Shown: one piece after another, positions 3,233 through 35,072 of the stretch
How the letters are laid out: the number at the start of each line of letters is the position of its first letter
Position numbering within the stretch: the stretch's first letter is position 1
Virus genome (UHGV): UHGV-0098678
Direction: 5' to 3' (one strand)
DNA from: a virus
Length of the DNA stretch: 38,888 nucleotides
The notes under the pieces: model-generated
The model's database searches: none
The model's input: only the letters and a program-made list of their open reading frames with translations
What the model was told of the DNA's origin: nothing
Program-made: the position numbers and the translations under genes

Positions 3233-3623
3233 CGTCTTTTCTCCCCGGAATTAACTCGCGTGGATTATCGGAACGGTGATAGAGCCAGATGCCAATACGC
3301 ACGGCGACAATTGCTGACACGAATGCGCCTGCAGAGAAAACAATCCCTTTTTCAAAAGAGTCCTGCGTGATGGTAGGGATCAGGCTGGCTATGCCGATAA
3401 GAATTGATGCTGCTGGTTTGTAAAAGAGAAGGCCGCAAAGAAAGCTGAGCATCGACAGGAGCACCCGGCGACGGATGGGGTACTCTACTGCAGAGGTAAC
3501 AAAAATTACCGCCCCAGCCAAAGCCCCTAAAGCAACCTCCGGAGGGACACCTGCAATAACCGCAGCAAGAGAACTAACACTAAGCCACTGATTTGAAGTT
3601 TCATTGGTTAGTTGGAATGACAT
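3219..3623 (-). CDS. holin-like membrane protein
   Basis: 134 aa with several hydrophobic helices (LAAVIAGVPPEVALGALAGAVIFV, ILIGIASLIPTI, FSAGAFVSAIVAVRIGIWLY) and a charged C-terminus; first gene of the lysis cassette after the tail fiber. Confidence 0.45.
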   Translation of the reverse strand: MSFQLTNETSNQWLSVSSLAAVIAGVPPEVALGALAGAVIFVTSAVEYPIRRRVLLSMLSFLCGLLFYKPAASILIGIASLIPTITQDSFEKGIVFSAGAFVSAIVAVRIGIWLYHRSDNPRELIPGRKDDGNA

Positions 3624-3695
3624 AACGAAACCCGTTTATTTGCAAACACCCTGCTTCAGGAAAAGTATACCGCGCAACAACACACCATTTACGGT

Positions 3696-6158
3696 TCAAT
3701 TCCCTGTTAATTGCAAAACTTGCTCTTCCAGCTTTTTAACCCTGCGTCTCATCATCGCAGATTCCAGAATCAGAGCCTCTTCATAACGGATACCGTAACA
3801 TTCACCAGCCTCGACGGCTTCGCGTACCAGAACCTTTGTCTGTATAAGTGGGTAAACTCCTGCAGAATGCTCTTCTTCCGTCACATCCCTGTATTCTGCC
3901 GGGGTCTCATTCCACTTGTCATAACAGATAAATGCCAGTCGTGACACATCTATGCCTTCATTCTGAAATACACTGATAACATGCTGCGCAACTGCACCAA
4001 AGTGCCATCTTGCTCCGTCTTTACCTTTCACTTCGATCCTGTCAAGGTACTGGTATGAAACCCATTCCACTCTTTCCCATGCGTCCAGTATTTTCTCATC
4101 AATAACCTCTGGAGCAGTCTTGAAACGCGCATCGGACAGCACCGTAAACGCTGACTGGGTAAATCCCCCCGACCATGCACGACCAGCCAACCCAAGAGAA
4201 TAAGTATTCGTTGTCGATGGTGTCATGGCTGAATCAGAAAACTGTATATATTCTGAATTTCCAGTAGATATTCGAATATTTCCATTTATTAGCGACATAG
4301 TGCCTTTAGTATTATCACTATTGAATAATTTCAATTGCGAACTTATACCGCCTCCCACAGCCAGAGATACATCGCCTTCAGCAAGCATTCTGAATTTATC
4401 TGCAGAAACAAGCGTCTGGTTAGCAAGGTTAAAATATTTAACCCACCATTCAAAACGCCCTGACATAGTCCCAACGTACTGACCAAGCGCAGGGACGTGA
4501 ACAACATTGCTATTTGTAGTGCCGTCTATACTGGAAATACCAGTCACCGCTGATGCAGAACTCAGAATATTATTTCTGTCACCCGGATGTTTAATTTCAA
4601 CAAAGTTCCTGATACACCCTTCCTCGAAGGTAACCACGCCGGAAGAACTATACATGGGGAATATTGACGCATAATTACTGCGTGCAGCATCTAAGAAACG
4701 AATGGTTGTAGATGTCTGCAGATCTCCTGATTCATTTTTCCCATCACACCCAGTCATTAGAATATTACTGGCAATATTATTATTTCCATGAACGGTGACT
4801 CCGTGCGCCTGCTTTGCGTCCGATTCAGAGTAATCAACCAGCACATTCGAAATCAGGTTACCAGTCCCCTTGCCAACAACTACTGCGGCGTATTTTGGGT
4901 TGTTAGCCATTACACTGCTAATGATATTATTCGTTGGGGCAGTTTCCGTCTCAGTTCCATTGTAAACAACGTGCTGACACTCTTCACCAATAACATTGCT
5001 GACAATGTTATATTTTGCTGCTGTTTTAAGTTCCACTGCACCAAACTGAGGATAATTTCTGGCTATCACACCATCAATTAGCGTATTTTGCGATGAATCA
5101 AAAAGCACACAACCTGCTTTTTTATTATTTGCGAACCCTAAATACTCTCCTCTTATATCTCTAACAATGTAACCTGACGGAATACCATTATTCGGATAAG
5201 CGATCAAGCTAAATCCTGTTCCTCGCGTATTTGTAAATCTGATATTTTTAACCGATACATCATGGCCACCTGAAAATGACACCTGGTGTCCCTGCACACT
5301 ATCATCTGATTTATTTCCCATAATTGTTAGCGTACTAAGCATGCCACCATCGGGCATGTTAAAAACCAGATGATTACCATCTCTGTCATACTGTTTTATC
5401 GTTCCCCCACCTGTTCCGTACAAGCCACAACGTGAAAGAGAAACTAAAGATGTATTGAATACCCCTTCCGGAACAAAAACACTGCTAAACGAATGTAATG
5501 ATTTTGTAAAAGCATCCTTGTTATCATTTAAGATTCCATTTTGAGCTCCAAAATCCTTAATGCTGACACCATCACGCATCTTATCCTGGAACGTTCTGTA
5601 TACCGCTCCAGAACCATACTGAATAAACCAACCAAAACCACCAATAACTCCGGCGATTGCAGCATCGACATAATTACGCATTGAGCGATTATTTACAGCG
5701 TCCTGCTCAAGTGATGGATCGGCAAGGTTAGATATTCTGTTTTGCTTTGCATCGTAATATTTTGCAAGCAAAGATGGTTTCATCAATGCACGTCTGAACC
5801 ACCCAAAACATCGCTGGATCAGCATCGTCAGGTAGTCAAATGCATCCTCATGAACTTCGGGGAAAAATTTTCCCTGATTGCGAAGATCAGTCTCCTGCAC
5901 CACATCAAGCACACGCTCTATCGTGATTCGCCAGCCAGCAGCAAGCGGCGACGGAAGAACCACTGCACCGCCACTATAAGTTCCCGCCCCTGTTACCGTA
6001 TAACCAGCATCCAGCACTAGTTTTGTAACGTTACCGTTAAGGTCAGACACCTGAACAACCAGGTCGGATTTTTTGAAAATACGGAAGGTATACGGAAATG
6101 ATGTCGTAACGCCGTTACCTGTGTATTCGTTGTGGTCAACTTCGGTTGAGACCGTCAT
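3696..6158 (-). CDS. tail fiber / tailspike with T7 gp17-like N-terminal adaptor, central beta-helix-like region and C-terminal S74-type intramolecular chaperone domain
   Basis: 820 aa. N-terminus (YTGNGVTTSFPYTF ... NRISNLADPSLEQDAVNNRSMRNYV) matches the T7 tail-fiber N-terminal domain pattern; C-terminus contains SDARFK and a coiled-coil tail typical of self-cleaving chaperone domains; SD GGAG 8 nt upstream of ATG 6158. Confidence 0.75.
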   Translation of the reverse strand: MTVSTEVDHNEYTGNGVTTSFPYTFRIFKKSDLVVQVSDLNGNVTKLVLDAGYTVTGAGTYSGGAVVLPSPLAAGWRITIERVLDVVQETDLRNQGKFFPEVHEDAFDYLTMLIQRCFGWFRRALMKPSLLAKYYDAKQNRISNLADPSLEQDAVNNRSMRNYVDAAIAGVIGGFGWFIQYGSGAVYRTFQDKMRDGVSIKDFGAQNGILNDNKDAFTKSLHSFSSVFVPEGVFNTSLVSLSRCGLYGTGGGTIKQYDRDGNHLVFNMPDGGMLSTLTIMGNKSDDSVQGHQVSFSGGHDVSVKNIRFTNTRGTGFSLIAYPNNGIPSGYIVRDIRGEYLGFANNKKAGCVLFDSSQNTLIDGVIARNYPQFGAVELKTAAKYNIVSNVIGEECQHVVYNGTETETAPTNNIISSVMANNPKYAAVVVGKGTGNLISNVLVDYSESDAKQAHGVTVHGNNNIASNILMTGCDGKNESGDLQTSTTIRFLDAARSNYASIFPMYSSSGVVTFEEGCIRNFVEIKHPGDRNNILSSASAVTGISSIDGTTNSNVVHVPALGQYVGTMSGRFEWWVKYFNLANQTLVSADKFRMLAEGDVSLAVGGGISSQLKLFNSDNTKGTMSLINGNIRISTGNSEYIQFSDSAMTPSTTNTYSLGLAGRAWSGGFTQSAFTVLSDARFKTAPEVIDEKILDAWERVEWVSYQYLDRIEVKGKDGARWHFGAVAQHVISVFQNEGIDVSRLAFICYDKWNETPAEYRDVTEEEHSAGVYPLIQTKVLVREAVEAGECYGIRYEEALILESAMMRRRVKKLEEQVLQLTGN

Positions 6159-6643: not shown

Positions 6644-6658
6644 TTACCTTTGCGGTAA
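6644..6658. promoter_or_regulatory. 15-bp palindrome TTACC-N5-GGTAA (putative operator)
   Basis: TTACCtttgcGGTAA inside a 19-bp perfect palindrome atTTACCtttgcGGTAAat (6642-6660); itself flanked by inverted repeat GGAGTGC/GCACTCC. Confidence 0.45.
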
Positions 6659-6751
6659 ATTTACATTGCACTCCTCTTGTGCCATAGTAATCAGGCACTG
6701 GCAAAATCCAGTGCCGGGATTGGTCTCCCGGATTACTACAGAGGCACATAT

Positions 6752-6771
6752 GCCGCATAAGCGGTTTTTTT
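6752..6771 (+). terminator. weak rho-independent terminator candidate
   Basis: Short GC stem (CCGC ataa GCGG) followed by seven T residues, about 140 nt downstream of the small antirepressor ORF. Confidence 0.3.
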
Positions 6772-6925
6772 ATGTGTAAAGCGCACCTATTCTATGGTGG
6801 GCTGTGTGGGGGCACCGAAAGGTGCGCCGGGTTCCTTTGTAGCCGGTAAGACCAACTCTGCACAGTTCACCACCATCTGATTGGTCTCAGCGGTGGTGAT
6901 TAACCTAACTACAAAGGTGATCGCC

Positions 6926-7618
6926 ATGAATACCAAACCTTCCATCTTTTCCTTTGAGTCATCCTGCCAGATCCGTATGTTCATGATTGACGGAGAACCT
7001 TGGTTTGTCACCAAAGATGTGTGCAATGCTTTGAATATTGATGTTACACAAGCGAGAAAACTTGATAAAAAAGGCTGGAACAAAAAGGGGCTGTATTCAA
7101 TACAGACCCCTGGTGGAATACAAGAACTATCCATCGTTTCAGAATCAGGTCTCTACATCCTTATTCTGCGTTGCAAAGAGGCAATGACAGAGGGAACGAG
7201 AGCATTCAGATTTCTTGAATGGGTTACAGGTGAGGTTCTTCCTCAGATCCGCCGCACCGGAAGTTACATTAAAAACTCGCTCCCGCAGGAAGAACGCATA
7301 AAGATGGTTGCCGACCAGGTAGCCAACGCCACAGCATCAGCAGTGATGCAGGCAATGAAGATAGAGAACAAAACCTACAGTGCCCCACTGAAGCCCGGCT
7401 ACCGCAGCCTGATTCACTCGCCGTCTGGTGTTCTCGGCCTGACGGAGAACTCACTGCTGATGAATCTGCTGAACCAGTTACAGGACGACGGGCACGACGT
7501 ATCGGGCGCGGCGGCGGAGCTGACCACCATGTTCTGCTACATCGTTGGTGTGAGCAAATGCCTGCGTGATATCCAGACGCACGCGGAGTACATCAACGAC
7601 AAGGCAGGGTTCTTCTGA
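6926..7618 (+). CDS. Bro-N domain antirepressor
   Basis: ATG at 6926 with SD AAAGGTGA; N-terminus FSFESSCQIRMFMIDGEPWFVTKDVCNALNI matches the Bro-N/antirepressor fold; C-terminal domain is paralogous to the small ORF at 6340-6612. Confidence 0.75.
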   Translation: MNTKPSIFSFESSCQIRMFMIDGEPWFVTKDVCNALNIDVTQARKLDKKGWNKKGLYSIQTPGGIQELSIVSESGLYILILRCKEAMTEGTRAFRFLEWVTGEVLPQIRRTGSYIKNSLPQEERIKMVADQVANATASAVMQAMKIENKTYSAPLKPGYRSLIHSPSGVLGLTENSLLMNLLNQLQDDGHDVSGAAAELTTMFCYIVGVSKCLRDIQTHAEYINDKAGFF

Positions 7619-7684
7619 CGGGCGGCGGCACAGGGATGTGCCTTTAAAATAATCATTGGCGATGTGATGTAGATTCGCGTAATA

Positions 7685-7699
7685 TTACCTTAAAGGTAA
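7685..7699. promoter_or_regulatory. 15-bp palindrome TTACC-N5-GGTAA (putative operator)
   Basis: TTACCttaaaGGTAA immediately upstream of the SD (AGGAGG) and ATG of the 55-aa ORF at 7712. Confidence 0.45.
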
Positions 7700-7711
7700 A
7701 GGAGGCGCGAT

Positions 7712-7879
7712 ATGACAGCGTTGAAAAATCGTACTCAGCACAATGAACAAGCCAAGCAATGCTGGGATGTCATTGGAAAAGTTATGCTTGGTCGCGCAAG
7801 CAAAGAGCGCGACAAGGATATGGTTTACCAGACAGGAACATCTTTTAGCGACTTCAAGGCGGCATTTCGCTCCAAATAG
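7712..7879 (+). CDS. hypothetical small basic protein (55 aa)
   Basis: Not in the ORF track (under 60 aa); ATG 7712 with strong SD AAAGGAGG; translated by hand as MTALKNRTQHNEQAKQCWDVIGKVMLGRASKERDKDMVYQTGTSFSDFKAAFRSK; stop TAG 7877-7879. Confidence 0.45.
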   Translation: MTALKNRTQHNEQAKQCWDVIGKVMLGRASKERDKDMVYQTGTSFSDFKAAFRSK

Positions 7880-7899
7880 AAGCACATCAGGAGTTTTCC

Positions 7900-8343
7900 T
7901 TGAAGTTTAACATTAGAATATCTAATAGTTTTCTACATGGGGAAAGCAACACCCCTTTCGCTGTAGACGGACCTTTCCTTACTGATGATGAAATAAAAAT
8001 CATACAAAGGTTTTTAGAGGATGTTGCCAATGGAAGGGCGCTTGTTGGAAAAAACAAGCCATCGTGGGTTGATGATAACCATGATAAAATTCCCGGCTCA
8101 GACAATTATGAGCAAGAGAATTATTGGCATTATCATTGTGGGCCAACATGGTATCCAAACACATTTAAGAATTATACCATTAACTTAAATTTCAACCCTG
8201 GCGGAATGCATTCTAATGAATGCATTCATTATGCAAAAAATGATAATGAAATTGTCATTGTTGGATTTTCAAGAGAACACATACCTTTCCTTTCATCAGA
8301 TGGAAACAACAATCCGCTTTTTAATGATGAAGAAGAAGAATAA
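7900..8343 (+). CDS. hypothetical protein with acidic C-terminal tail (moron)
   Basis: TTG start at 7900 with AGGAG 6 nt upstream; 147 aa, low-GC coding sequence, C-terminus ...NDEEEE; followed directly by a terminator. No recognisable family. Confidence 0.55.
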   Translation: MKFNIRISNSFLHGESNTPFAVDGPFLTDDEIKIIQRFLEDVANGRALVGKNKPSWVDDNHDKIPGSDNYEQENYWHYHCGPTWYPNTFKNYTINLNFNPGGMHSNECIHYAKNDNEIVIVGFSREHIPFLSSDGNNNPLFNDEEEE

Positions 8344-8365
8344 GCCCGCGCTGCGGGCTTTTTTG
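8343..8365 (+). terminator. rho-independent terminator
   Basis: Stem AGCCCGC/GCGGGCT with 3-nt loop followed by TTTTTT, starting at the stop codon of the 7900-8343 gene. Confidence 0.7.
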
Positions 8366-8436
8366 TGGACGAAACAAAAGTCAGTGCTACACTCATTGAC
8401 GCCACATTGAGGTGGCTTATAGATGGAAATTTCACA

Positions 8437-8598
8437 ATGAAAAAAGCATTTGCTGCACTGTTCGTTTTGTTGTCTCTGGTAGCTTCAACTCAGGCCTTTG
8501 CCGGTCGTTGTCAGCACGACAGCGACACTGCTGCTGACGGCTCCCGCTGCGGTGGGCGTTCTGCGGATTCCCGTCCGGGCGGCGGTGGCATTCGTTAA
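8437..8598 (+). CDS. small secreted Cys-containing Gly/Arg-rich peptide (53 aa precursor)
   Basis: Internal ATG 8437 of the track ORF 8365-8598 gives MKKAFAALFVLLSLVASTQAFA (signal peptide) followed by a roughly 30-aa mature part with two Cys; weak SD. Confidence 0.35.
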   Translation: MKKAFAALFVLLSLVASTQAFAGRCQHDSDTAADGSRCGGRSADSRPGGGGIR

Positions 8599-8627: not shown

Positions 8628-9479
8628 TCACTGTGCAGTTTTCGCTGATCGATTTTCAGCTCTAAATTCAAGAACCGTTTCAATATTTCTTTCCTTCAGC
8701 ATATCAATAACATTTTTATTCATTTGACTATCACTGGTTAATAACTGGTAAACGTTGCTTCTCTCTTTATCAGAGTTTTCTTTAACAGCTGCTTTGCATG
8801 CCAAATGCTTATTGAAATTTTCTACATCGCTAGTACAGGAATTTACGGCTGCTGATGAAATATCAGACGCTGAAGAAACACCGTCATCCAAACGTTTTAT
8901 AGCATTTTCTATACATGAGTTAAGGGAATAAACGACAACTGAGCGATACCCTTCAGACGCACACCATTCTAAATTTCTTGAAGGATCGAGTGGTTTTACT
9001 TCGCTGGATTGAATTAACTTGTCAAAAACTGACTTATATTCAATCTGTTTTTTATCTATAGCCCATACTTCAGTAGCTGATTTATAATTCCCCGTATGCC
9101 TATTAACATCAAATCCATGTTTTATAAGCAAATCTGCCCATGAAAGATTTATTGATTCATTGTTATGAGGCCATTTTCCTGTCAGAACCGCCCCCATAGA
9201 CCCCATATATCCGCCATATGATGGTATAGCACCATGGCTCAGTAACTTCTCTGCAACCACAGGGCAATTAATTACATAAGAGGCGTAAAGCCCATTCCAT
9301 AAAGCCCCTCTATAGTAATCGCCACGATTAGGTTCTTTTAAGTCGATAGCCTTTGATAATTGTTCGCACGTTTTGCATGCATCAAAGTTATCCTTATTGC
9401 ATTGCAATGAACTGGCAGCTGTAGGATTTACAGAGACTATTGAAAGCACTATGCCAAAAAACAAATTTATTTTTTTCAT
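8628..9479 (-). CDS. secreted Cys-rich protein, possibly with degenerate ankyrin-like repeats (moron)
   Basis: ATG 9479 lies 1 nt after the stop of the upstream virion-protein gene; signal peptide MKKINLFFGIVLSIVSVNPTAASS; AT-rich; segments such as ADLLIKHGFDVNRHTG resemble ankyrin repeat cores. Confidence 0.55.
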   Translation of the reverse strand: MKKINLFFGIVLSIVSVNPTAASSLQCNKDNFDACKTCEQLSKAIDLKEPNRGDYYRGALWNGLYASYVINCPVVAEKLLSHGAIPSYGGYMGSMGAVLTGKWPHNNESINLSWADLLIKHGFDVNRHTGNYKSATEVWAIDKKQIEYKSVFDKLIQSSEVKPLDPSRNLEWCASEGYRSVVVYSLNSCIENAIKRLDDGVSSASDISSAAVNSCTSDVENFNKHLACKAAVKENSDKERSNVYQLLTSDSQMNKNVIDMLKERNIETVLEFRAENRSAKTAQ

Positions 9480-24914: not shown

Positions 24915-24929
24915 TTACCTTTCAGGTAA
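24915..24929. promoter_or_regulatory. 15-bp palindrome TTACC-N5-GGTAA (putative operator)
   Basis: TTACCtttcaGGTAA, same core as the site at 6263; a TTGACA hexamer lies 17 nt upstream (24893-24898); in the noncoding gap between the portal-side genes and the tRNA. Confidence 0.45.
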
Positions 24930-25251: not shown

Positions 25252-25328
25252 GTGGCATTAGCTCAGTTGGACAGAGCAACCGCCTTCTAAGCGGTTGGTC
25301 GCAGGTTCGAATCCTGCATGCCACGCCA
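25252..25328 (+). tRNA. tRNA-Arg (anticodon UCU)
   Basis: Hand-folded cloverleaf: acceptor GTGGCAT/ATGCCAC, D-arm GCTC...GAGC, anticodon stem ACCGC/GCGGT with loop CTTCTAA (anticodon TCT), 5-nt variable loop, T-arm GCAGG-TTCGAAT-CCTGC, discriminator G, encoded CCA. Confidence 0.85.
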
Positions 25329-34367: not shown

Positions 34368-34952
34368 ATGAAAAGTATCCAGGACGTCCGCAGGCAAAAT
34401 CTCAACGACTTGATCGACCGTGAATTCAATGGTGTTCAGACGCGGATGGCAGAAAAACTTGGAACTCAGGCAAATCTGGTAAACCGCTGGGCTCTTGGCA
34501 AGAAGGTTATCGGCGACCAGGTTGCACGAAAAATTGAAGCTGCCGCCAATAAACCCCGTAACTGGCTTGATATTGATCGTTCGCTTTCTCAGGAGGGTTT
34601 TCAGCCTGTCGGACCAAGCGACATTGGTCAACTGGCGGCTCACAACCTGGAACGCTGGATGAGCGAAAGCCGCGACCTTTCAACACAGGGAAAACTTCAC
34701 CGCGCATCCGGCGTAGCCCAGGTGACAATCAGCCGCCTGTTAAACAATGAGGTCAGCGTTTCCATTTCCACCCTGGAGAATGTTGCATCCGCATTCGGGC
34801 GTCATGGCTATGAATTACTGATTCACCCGCACGACCCTGCGACCATCAACTATGATCGCTCGCGCTACGCATTGTTACCCGAAACCGAGAAAGCAAAGAT
34901 CGAAAGTTACATTGAATTTGTCATCAACCAGAACGAAAAAAGCAAACAATAA
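34368..34952 (+). CDS. phage repressor-like protein with two HTH domains and no S24 peptidase domain
   Basis: 194 aa; first HTH around QTRMAEKLGTQANLVNRWALGKK, second around LHRASGVAQVTISRLLNNEVSVSISTLENVASAFG; no Ala-Gly/Ser-Lys autocleavage module; sits between operator clusters like lambda cI. Confidence 0.55.
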   Translation: MKSIQDVRRQNLNDLIDREFNGVQTRMAEKLGTQANLVNRWALGKKVIGDQVARKIEAAANKPRNWLDIDRSLSQEGFQPVGPSDIGQLAAHNLERWMSESRDLSTQGKLHRASGVAQVTISRLLNNEVSVSISTLENVASAFGRHGYELLIHPHDPATINYDRSRYALLPETEKAKIESYIEFVINQNEKSKQ

Positions 34953-35043: not shown

Positions 35044-35072
35044 TTGACACCAAACCAAATAAGCATAATTAT
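35044..35072 (+). promoter_or_regulatory. candidate sigma70 promoter (pL-like) for the + strand early operon
   Basis: TTGACA (35044-35049), 17-nt spacer, AATTAT (35067-35072); its -10 abuts the operator at 35075. Confidence 0.4.

What the first reader, a model, noticed from the sequence alone, without database searches (positions are those of the whole stretch)
7685..8366. Operator-controlled, terminator-bounded low-GC two-gene moron cassette of unknown function
A compact unit of operator-like palindrome, SD-ATG 55-aa basic protein, SD-TTG 147-aa protein with an acidic EEEE tail, then a strong terminator is inserted between the antirepressor genes and the virion genes. It has visibly lower GC than its surroundings. 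Neither protein matches a family recognisable by eye. Small basic plus acidic-tailed partner pairs in prophage morons are typical of toxin-antitoxin, superinfection-exclusion or anti-defence (DNA-mimic) functions, so this is a prime candidate for an undescribed accessory system.
Basis: partly seen in the sequence, partly recalled or inferred. Interest (0 to 1): 0.7.

Follow-up and report, generated by a model that had tools for sequence, protein, structure and literature searches.

The report
RelE-like toxin pair in prophage slot
A two-gene cassette in an epsilon15-like E. coli prophage most likely encodes an uncharacterised RelE/YafO-like RNA-cutting toxin and its small partner inhibitor, and it sits in a swap-in cargo slot whose "operator" and terminator belong to the phage, not to the cassette.

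Summary
The described anatomy is real: palindrome 7685-7699, SD-ATG gene A (55 aa), SD-TTG gene B (147 aa, EEEE tail), strong terminator, low GC in B. The window is a Uetakevirus (epsilon15/phiV10-like) E. coli prophage.

An A-like ORF lies immediately upstream of B in 105 of 109 loci. A and B co-diverge and have complementary charges. The pair turns up in unrelated phage positions and in a bacterial chromosome.

The palindrome is not cassette-specific. It is one of 13 copies of a phage-wide operator-like motif (0.54 expected by chance). It and the terminator also frame at least six other cargos at the same site, including a YafO-family toxin.

The best reading is a new RelE-superfamily type II toxin-antitoxin-like module with a minimal antitoxin that has no DNA-binding domain, carried in a cargo slot probably controlled by the phage repressor. 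The acidic tail and DNA-mimic idea is not supported. Toxicity is untested. Interest is moderate.

The parts
7627..7653 (+). Weak hairpin (GGCACA-GGGA-TGTGCC) plus TTTAAAATAAT after the antirepressor stop codon. It is a possible leaky terminator, so read-through from the upstream isrK-C4-ant operon into the cassette cannot be excluded.
   Evidence: Sequence read. Folds at -10.1 kcal/mol, z = -1.8. Not flagged by the terminator scan. Conserved in E. coli relatives.
7656..7685 (+). Candidate slot promoter: -35 TTGGCG (7656-7661), 18-nt spacer, -10 TAATAT (7680-7685). The last T of the -10 is the first base of the palindrome. Inferred only.
   Evidence: Read. It matches 8 of 12 positions, below the scan threshold. 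The same -10/operator overlap is seen at the well-formed TTGACA-17-AATTAT promoter next to the copy at 35072, and TACTAT / TAAAAT occupy the same position in relatives.
7685..7699 (.). Operator-like palindrome TTACC-N5-GGTAA. It is the left boundary of the exchangeable cargo and one of 13 phage-wide copies.
   Evidence: 13 matches against 0.54 expected. Half-sites are conserved and the spacer varies across different cargos. As RNA it is not a significant structure (-4.2 kcal/mol, z = -0.36).
7712..7879 (+). Gene A, 55 aa, basic, helical. Proposed minimal antitoxin or inhibitor consisting only of the family's conserved C-terminal module (SD AGGAGG at 7700-7705).
   Evidence: (phrog_8607).
7900..8343 (+). 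Gene B, 147 aa, TTG start (SD AGGAG at 7889-7893). RelE/ParE-superfamily fold with invariant H77, H79 and H127. Proposed endoribonuclease toxin.
   Evidence: (phrog_5954).
8342..8366 (+). Intrinsic terminator (AAGCCCGCG-CT-GCGGGCTT plus a T run). It starts at B's stop codon and is the right boundary of the cargo slot, shared by other cargos.
   Evidence: -14.3 kcal/mol.

Best explanation
Genes A and B form a type II toxin-antitoxin-like module of an undescribed family.

B is a RelE-superfamily, YafO-like, histidine-dependent endoribonuclease that would arrest translation by cutting RNA. A is a small helical protein that binds and neutralises B, partly through charge complementarity. A consists only of the conserved partner-binding module and has no DNA-binding domain, so the pair does not regulate itself.

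Instead it rides in an exchangeable cargo slot of the Uetakevirus backbone. The slot supplies a promoter region overlapped by the phage-wide operator TTACC-N5-GGTAA, probably bound by the prophage repressor and/or its Cro-like partner, and a shared terminator. Expression would then follow the phage's immunity switch, together with the adjacent isrK-C4-antirepressor operon.

Shown here: the fold, the invariant residues, co-conservation of the pair, its mobility, and the slot architecture.

Inferred: RNase activity, toxicity, neutralisation by A, which protein binds the operator, and what the module does for the phage (exclusion of competitors, abortive infection, or host shut-off).

For: **Catalytic-looking conservation.** H77, H79 and H127 are invariant, and G50, N52, K53, Y78 and Y111 nearly invariant, over 55 diverse members. 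They lie on the three core strands and just after the last one.

**Link to YafO.** hhalign of the B family against a YafO alignment scores 21.6 (P = 0.0088). None of 200 column shuffles reaches it (maximum 17.8) and the reversed alignment scores 12.5. The extended alignment puts H77, H79, Y111 and H127 on YafO's invariant H60, H62, Y88 and H109. YafO is a RelE-superfamily toxin that cleaves translated mRNA (PMC2814082).

**Pairing.** An A-like ORF ends within a few bases of B's start in 105 of 109 loci, and the other four have a small upstream ORF. All 24 viral contigs found with A also carry B. Pairwise identities of A and B correlate (r = 0.91), and A evolves faster (31% against 52% mean identity). 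Net charges of A and B anticorrelate (Spearman -0.71, 33 pairs). Distant members show the classical polarity of basic B and acidic partner.

**Mobility.** The pair occurs in the Uetakevirus slot, the Klebsiella lambdoid nin region, a Haemophilus tail cluster, beside a MuF polyvalent protein, and in the Erwinia chromosome between accA and mtnA.

**Slot.** The same palindrome and terminator frame a YafO-family toxin and other cargos.

**Operator.** There are 13 copies, paired on both sides of the 194-aa HTH_3 protein and in the divergent region facing a 76-aa Cro-like gene.
Against: - No experiment shows toxicity, RNase activity or A-B binding.
- B fails the YafO Pfam model and every other curated model. 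The YafO link rests on a weak profile score (HHsuite probability 4.6%).
- The window's B is acidic (pI 4.8) and A is basic, the reverse of typical RelE-type pairs. An acidic protein is a poor fit for ribosomal A-site binding.
- A has no detectable relation to YafN or to any antitoxin family. Its model is only moderately confident (pLDDT 72).
- If the operator is a repressor site, the module would be silent in the lysogen, which is atypical for addiction or defence TA modules.
- The correlations across pairs are not phylogenetically independent.
Confidence: 0.6

Rival explanations
1. B is an active RNase, but the pair is a phage-timed lytic-cycle tool rather than a TA or addiction module. It would be expressed only when repression is lifted. 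B would degrade or process host or phage RNA, and A would act as a timing or dosage inhibitor or a specificity partner.
For: - The slot promoter is overlapped by the phage-wide operator that also sits at the early promoters flanking the repressor gene.
- The cassette lies directly downstream of an isrK-C4-antirepressor operon.
- A lacks any autoregulatory DNA-binding domain.
- The acidic B of this clade may not use the ribosome.
Against: - The same pair occurs in a non-phage chromosomal site in Erwinia, and at unrelated positions in other phages without the palindrome. Its function therefore cannot depend on this regulation.
- A tightly paired inhibitor and mobility are the hallmarks of a TA module.
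Confidence: 0.17
2. B is a non-catalytic RelE/ParE-fold binding protein, for example a ParE-like enzyme inhibitor, or an anti-defence decoy or DNA mimic that uses its acidic surface and tail. A would be its chaperone or regulator.
For: - The window's B is very acidic and has an EEEE tail.
- The location in a phage accessory slot is compatible.
Against: - Acidity and the tail are not conserved (family median pI 7.5, range 4.8-10.7).
- What is invariant is a His/Tyr/Lys set typical of RelE-type RNase sites, aligned with YafO's invariant residues.
- The best structural matches are RNase toxins, not ParE.
Confidence: 0.1
3. A and B are ordinary phage structural or assembly proteins, or regulators, misread as cargo.
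For: In Haemophilus prophages the pair lies between the tape-measure gene and the baseplate spike gene. In a Pasteurellaceae prophage it lies between a MuF-type protein and head genes.
Against: - Its position differs in every phage type, and it also occurs in a bacterial chromosome.
- Within one phage genus it is present in only about 77 of 479 E. coli genomes that carry the slot, and is replaced by unrelated genes in the rest.
- There is no match to any virion or regulator family.
- The RelE fold is not a known virion fold.
Confidence: 0.03

Closest known systems
YafN-YafO type II toxin-antitoxin system of E. coli (YafO_toxin, PF13957)
   Same: - The small partner gene lies upstream and the toxin downstream, tightly coupled.
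- It belongs to the RelE superfamily.
- The profile alignment superposes the G-[KR]-[ND], HxH, Y and C-terminal H motifs.
- A YafO-family toxin occupies the identical slot in TL-2011b and in many E. coli prophages.
   Different: - B and 54 relatives do not hit PF13957 at E of 0.01 or better, and the window's B has no Pfam hit even at E of 1 or better.
- B carries a longer insertion between the HxH strand and the next strand.
- The partner A is not a Phd/YefM-type YafN and has no DNA-binding domain.
- The window's B is acidic, whereas YafO is neutral.
DinJ-YafQ, RelBE, YefM-YoeB and HigBA ribosome-dependent mRNA endonuclease toxins
   Same: - The conserved residues are histidine-rich and sit on the core sheet and the C-terminal segment. 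From my own knowledge of the YafQ and HigB active sites, this resembles them.
   Different: - There is no sequence similarity.
- B is about 60 residues longer, with an N-terminal strand-helix extension and an internal insertion.
- The charge polarity of the pair is inverted in the window's clade.
PaaR2-PaaA2-ParE2 of E. coli O157 prophages
   Same: The antitoxin is small and helical, has no DNA-binding domain, and its transcription is controlled by a separate regulator. That description is from my own knowledge of the system; the PaaA2-ParE2 structures 5czf and 5cw7 appear among the fold hits. It is also prophage-borne.
   Different: - Here no dedicated third gene is present. Control would come from the phage's own immunity operator.
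- The toxin looks like an RNase rather than a ParE.
Phage 'morons' and cargo hotspots, and the P1 immI region (C1-controlled c4-icd-ant operon)
   Same: - It is a low-GC insert bounded by a promoter region and a terminator between backbone genes, and is absent from or replaced in sister phages.
- It lies beside a C4 antisense RNA and an antirepressor gene preceded by a copy of the phage-wide operator. From my own knowledge, this resembles P1's Op51-c4-ant arrangement.
   Different: - The promoter/operator and terminator are part of the slot and are reused by every cargo, rather than arriving with each moron.
- The operator suggests the cargo follows the lytic switch rather than being expressed constitutively from the prophage. 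This is an inference.

Membership tests
RelE/ParE toxin superfamily (fold level) | Compact alpha/beta fold: antiparallel sheet packed against N-terminal helices, as in RelE, YoeB, YafQ and HigB | tested here: met
   [not shown]
RelE/ParE toxin superfamily (fold level) | Conserved catalytic residues on the sheet and C-terminal segment (for the RNase branch) | tested here: inconclusive
   H77, H79 and H127 are invariant, and K53, Y78 and Y111 nearly invariant, in 55 sequences. They sit on strands 75-79 and 108-113 and just after strand 117-124.
RelE/ParE toxin superfamily (fold level) | Basic protein suited to ribosome or RNA binding | tested here: not met
   The window's B has pI 4.8 and net charge -12. 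Its whole gamma-proteobacterial clade is acidic. Distant members are basic, with pI 9.9 and 10.7.
YafO toxin family (PF13957) | Scores above the Pfam gathering threshold for YafO_toxin | tested here: not met
   The window's B has no hit at E of 1 or better. None of 55 family members hits at E of 0.01 or better. The TL-2011b slot protein does hit (26.3 bits).
YafO toxin family (PF13957) | Remote homology detectable by profile-profile comparison | tested here: inconclusive
   hhalign scores 21.6, P = 0.0088, probability 4.6%. None of 200 shuffles reaches it and the reversed alignment scores 12.5. The invariant His and Tyr residues co-align.
YafO toxin family (PF13957) | Partnered with a Phd/YefM-type antitoxin (YafN) | tested here: not met
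   YafO loci have a PhdYeFM partner. A has no Pfam hit. hhalign of A against YafN scores 8.8, against a null mean of 9.2.
Type II toxin-antitoxin module (generic) | Two small co-directional genes, tightly spaced or overlapping, inherited as a unit and patchily distributed in mobile contexts | tested here: met
   The gap is 20 nt here and ranges from -2 to 3 nt in many relatives. Pairing holds in 105 of 109 loci and in 24 of 24 for the reverse test. Co-divergence gives r = 0.91. Five unrelated genomic contexts were found.
Type II toxin-antitoxin module (generic) | Antitoxin carries a DNA-binding domain and autoregulates the operon | tested here: not met
   A is 55 aa with two predicted helices and no RHH, HTH, AbrB or Phd match. 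The upstream palindrome is a phage-wide motif shared with other cargos.
Type II toxin-antitoxin module (generic) | Toxin arrests growth, and the antitoxin binds it, neutralises it and is proteolytically labile | not testable with these tools
   The only indirect support is charge complementarity (Spearman -0.71) and faster evolution of A.
Phage moron | Extra gene(s) between backbone genes, flanked by a promoter and a terminator, with deviant base composition, and absent from related phages | tested here: met
   B is 35.1% GC against 48.2% for the window. The pair is replaced by other genes in sister phages. One caveat: the flanking signals are shared slot elements, and no consensus promoter was detected.
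Acidic DNA-mimic / anti-defence proteins | Conserved, strongly acidic surface or tail across the family | tested here: not met
   The family has median pI 7.5 and median net charge +1, and the C-terminal tails are not conserved.
Known anti-phage defence systems (PADLOC-DB 2.0) | Match to a model of a known or candidate defence protein | tested here: not met
   A and B have no hits at E of 1 or better. The alternative cargos of the slot have none at E of 0.01 or better.

The most novel reading that the evidence does not exclude
The enterobacterial and Pasteurellaceae clade of this family is a charge-inverted RelE-fold module. An acidic B no longer works in the ribosomal A site and instead acts on a different, probably basic or protein-bound, target. 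A basic 55-aa A acts as its clamp. The module is wired into the phage's immunity switch through the shared operator, so it fires only on infection or induction. That would make it a phage-timed RNase or inhibitor weapon, used for example against co-resident prophages, superinfecting phages or host defences, delivered from a plug-and-play slot. It would not be a self-regulated addiction module.
Probability: 0.15. Interest if true: 0.65.

Novelty: new variant of a known kind. Interest (0 to 1): 0.45.

Why it matters
If confirmed, this adds an unnamed toxin family (119 clusters at 50% identity in 1.84 billion proteins) and an unrelated, modular partner family to the RelE superfamily. It would also fill a missing step between YafO and the structurally solved RelE-type toxins.

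Two features would interest TA and phage biologists.
1. The antitoxin is stripped down to a 55-residue binding module, and regulation is outsourced to the host phage's own operator.
2. The charge polarity of the pair has flipped while complementarity is kept.

Separately, the slot itself has a conserved operator on the left and a conserved terminator hairpin on the right, with at least seven interchangeable cargos across about 480 E. coli genomes. It is a well-delimited natural landing pad. It could be mined for further phage accessory, defence or counter-defence genes, or used to engineer Uetakeviruses such as the phiV10 reporter phages.

Tried and rejected
- **Curated libraries.** Pfam, NCBIfam, PADLOC, PDB by sequence and PDB by profile found nothing for A or B. 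PHROGs returned only families of unknown function.
- **Direct comparison with other slot cargos.** BLASTP of B against the TL-2011b YafO-like protein and the EC.W1-9 DUF2335 protein was not significant. hhalign against the single TL-2011b sequence was not significant either.
- **Pfam on 55 diverse B relatives.** I hoped some would be recognised as YafO. None was.
- **A against other antitoxins.** A against the TL-2011b 59-aa protein gave no alignment. A against single sequences was not significant: YafN, the TL-2011b 59-aa protein and the EC.W1-9 108-aa protein. A against a five-sequence YafN alignment scored 8.8, against a null of 9.2. The by-eye resemblance of SFxDFK to YafN's C-terminal DFNDFKE is therefore dropped.
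- **Structure tools.** The AlphaFold database fold search (afdb50) was not available. The BFVD viral fold search gave nothing significant.
- **Upstream region travelling with the cassette.** I suspected this from a shared GGCGATGT at the same offset in Erwinia. It is rejected: the same upstream variant precedes a different cargo in L148.
- **Palindrome as an RNA element or SD-sequestering hairpin.** Rejected: -4.2 kcal/mol, z = -0.36.
- **Acidic tail as a family trait.** Rejected.
- **Literature.** Searches for the protein accessions, PHROG ids, or a published operator for these phages found nothing. The ZX5 paper identifies the repressor and antirepressor but defines no operator.
- **The search for related loci with the diverse alignment A3.** It failed for lack of a conserved stretch. 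The closer alignment A1 worked.

Full report
**Where the window comes from.** The region 7600-8450 is 97-99% identical to Escherichia phages HEMP4 and phiv142-3 (genus Uetakevirus, the epsilon15/phiV10 group). It is also up to 99.9% identical to prophages in many E. coli chromosomes. Upstream lies a Bro-N antirepressor gene. Downstream lie a small membrane-anchored protein, a 283-aa protein on the minus strand, and large genes on the minus strand.

**Observation check.**
- The palindrome TTACCTTAAAGGTAA is at 7685-7699.
- AGGAGG is followed by ATG for a 55-aa basic protein (A, 7712-7879).
- AGGAG is followed by TTG for a 147-aa protein ending DEEEE (B, 7900-8343).
- A G+C-rich hairpin with a T6 run lies at 8342-8366. 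It folds at -14.3 kcal/mol.
- B has 35.1% GC against 48.2 ± 4.1% for the window. A (45.8%) is unremarkable.
- RefSeq annotates the same two CDSs, including the TTG start.

**The operator and terminator belong to the phage.** TTACC-N5-GGTAA occurs 13 times in the window (10 perfect copies) against 0.54 expected from shuffles. Most copies are intergenic.
- Two lie in the divergent region between a 76-aa Cro-like gene and a 194-aa HTH_3 protein.
- Two more lie just after that gene, next to a good TTGACA-17-AATTAT promoter.
- Others precede the replication genes, the small terminase gene, the tailspike gene, a 90-aa antirepressor-related ORF and the antirepressor operon.

A published study of the related phage ZX5 shows that a repressor with a C-terminal HTH is the key lysogeny determinant, but it defines no operator (PMC9782041). 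I therefore infer, and have not shown, that this palindrome is the operator of the immunity repressor and/or Cro.

At the cassette site the two half-sites are conserved in TL-2011b, EC.W1-9, a Serratia prophage and several E. coli prophages. In those phages the 5-nt spacer and everything to its right differ. Similarity resumes exactly at the terminator stem GCCCGC...GCGGGC-T6, which begins right after each cargo's stop codon.

I saw the following between these two boundaries:
- this A/B pair;
- a 59-aa ORF plus a YafO-family toxin (PF13957, 26.3 bits);
- a 108-aa ORF plus a DUF2335 protein;
- a DUF4760 protein;
- two different proteins of about 210 aa;
- a 62-aa plus 110-aa pair.

About 479 of 5,426 complete E. 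coli genomes match part of the query around this slot, and 77 carry A/B. The unit is therefore best described as exchangeable cargo in a backbone slot. The scan found no consensus promoter, and the best candidate I could read matches 8 of 12 positions. As RNA the palindrome is not a meaningful structure.

**Regulatory context.** An Rfam scan found an isrK sRNA (6695-6771) and a C4 antisense RNA (6790-6877) between the operator copy at 6644 and the antirepressor gene. From my own knowledge, this resembles the P1 immI arrangement. Only a weak hairpin (-10.1 kcal/mol, poor U tract) separates the antirepressor gene from the cassette, so read-through is possible.

**What B is.** B has no hit in Pfam, NCBIfam, PADLOC or PDB sequences. 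It belongs to phrog_5954, of unknown function.
- A word-indexed search found 36 relatives in Enterobacterales and Pasteurellaceae.
- A full HMM search of 1.84 billion representatives found 119 clusters at E of 0.001 or better.
- In the close clade the motifs GKNKPSW, WHYHCG, IHYxK and S..H.PF are invariant or nearly so.
- Over 55 diverse members, H77, H79 and H127 stay invariant, and G50, N52, K53, Y78 and Y111 nearly invariant.

None of 55 relatives hits the YafO Pfam model. A profile-profile comparison with a YafO alignment nevertheless scores 21.6 (P = 0.0088). This is above all 200 column-shuffled controls (maximum 17.8) and the reversed control (12.5). The extended alignment places H77, H79, Y111 and H127 on YafO's invariant H60, H62, Y88 and H109. 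YafO is a RelE-superfamily toxin that cleaves only translated mRNA (PMC2814082). I conclude that B is a RelE-superfamily protein, probably a distant YafO-like endoribonuclease. It is not a member of the curated YafO family.

**What A is.** A (phrog_8607) has no family match. It is predicted to form one long helix (2-36) and one short helix (45-53), at moderate confidence.
- In 109 loci carrying B, an A-like ORF lies immediately upstream in 105. The other four have a small upstream ORF.
- The conserved part of A is its C-terminal 45 or so residues. N-terminal extensions range from none (here) to about 140 residues.
- All 24 viral contigs retrieved with A also carry B.
- Pairwise identities of A and B correlate (r = 0.91), and A diverges faster (31% against 52% mean identity).
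- Net charges anticorrelate (Spearman -0.71 over 33 pairs).
- In two distant members B is strongly basic and its upstream partner acidic. In the window's clade the polarity is inverted. These statistics are not phylogenetically independent.
- A shows no relation to YafN.

**Mobility.** The pair sits in the Uetakevirus slot in E. coli and Serratia, and in the nin region of Klebsiella lambdoid prophages. It sits between the tape-measure and baseplate spike genes in Haemophilus prophages, and after a MuF-type polyvalent protein in a Pasteurellaceae prophage. In the Erwinia chromosome it lies between accA and mtnA. That pattern argues against a structural role and for a self-contained accessory module.

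**Interpretation.** The most likely reading (about 0.6) is a type II TA-like module. B is a histidine-dependent RNase toxin. A is a minimal neutralising partner without a DNA-binding domain. Transcription is handed over to the slot's promoter and operator.

The main uncertainties are these:
- there is no functional evidence at all;
- B is unusually acidic here, which fits poorly with A-site binding;
- if the operator is a repressor site, the pair would be silent in lysogens and expressed with the early and antirepressor genes. That points to a role at infection or induction rather than classical addiction.

The DNA-mimic idea is not supported, because acidity and the tail are not conserved.

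Noticed in passing
window 6031, 6263, 6644, 7685, 24915, 28079, 31905, 31967, 33913, 34250, 34298, 35010, 35072 (15 nt each): There are thirteen copies of the palindrome TTACC-N5-GGTAA (10 perfect, 0.54 expected by chance). Most are intergenic. Pairs flank the 194-aa HTH_3 protein (34368-34952) and sit ahead of the replication genes. This is probably the dispersed operator set of the prophage repressor and/or Cro. I found no published definition of it.
   Followed up: partly
window 6695-6771 and 6790-6877 (+): Rfam finds an isrK Hfq-binding sRNA (74.7 bits) and a C4 antisense RNA (78.6 bits) directly upstream of the Bro-N antirepressor gene and downstream of an operator copy at 6644. This is a P1 immI / Gifsy-1-like antisense control of the antirepressor in an epsilon15-like podovirus.
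   Followed up: no
window 8437-8598 (+): A small signal-peptide or membrane-anchored protein (53 aa from the ATG; phrog_14503, 'moron') is conserved immediately right of the slot terminator in all relatives, whatever the cargo. A promoter-like TTGACG-16-TATAGA lies upstream. It may be the lysogen-expressed gene of this region.
   Followed up: no
window 8628-9479 (-): A 283-aa protein with an N-terminal signal-like sequence has low GC (37%) and matches phrog_6118, of unknown function. The site is a second variable locus. It is replaced by a 118-aa ORF in phiv142-3, a 98-aa ORF in other E. coli prophages, and Ant plus an Arc-like repressor in TL-2011b.
   Followed up: no
L147 472-660 and 662-994; L145 506-1138; L148 479-1114; L146 576-1115: Other cargos occupy the same slot: a tightly coupled 62-aa plus 110-aa pair (another TA-like architecture), two different proteins of about 210 aa, and a DUF4760 protein. 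None has a PADLOC hit, and only DUF4760 has a Pfam hit.
   Followed up: partly
L011-L014, L074, L075 (e.g. L011 3391-3405, genes 3446-4486): In Klebsiella lambdoid prophages the module is a three-gene version (95 aa, a 102-aa A-like protein, then B) in the nin region. It is preceded by a single ATTACC-N5-GGTAAT palindrome, the only copy in the 8.5-kb locus, and followed by a different terminator. The operator may have travelled with the cargo from a Uetakevirus.
   Followed up: no
window 8311-8343 (B residues 138-147); alignment A1: An N-P-x-F motif is nearly invariant in the gamma-proteobacterial clade. It is followed by a variable, mostly acidic tail with low model confidence. I have no explanation; it could be a partner-binding peptide or a degron.
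   Followed up: no
L023, L078, L080 (about 3986-4426): In Canicola haemoglobinophilus prophage copies, B is split into two ORFs while the upstream 211-aa A-like gene is intact. This looks like toxin-first decay, as is often seen for TA modules.
   Followed up: no
window 8344-8364 compared with L002 4866 and L145 1144: The slot terminator keeps its stem, but its central bases differ or are inverted between cargos (GCGCTGC, GCAGCGC, GCGTTGC, GCGTCGC). That is compatible with recombination inside the hairpin during cargo exchange.
   Followed up: no
window 25252-25328 (+): A tRNA-Arg (anticodon TCT) gene lies inside the prophage, next to the operator copy at 24915.
   Followed up: no
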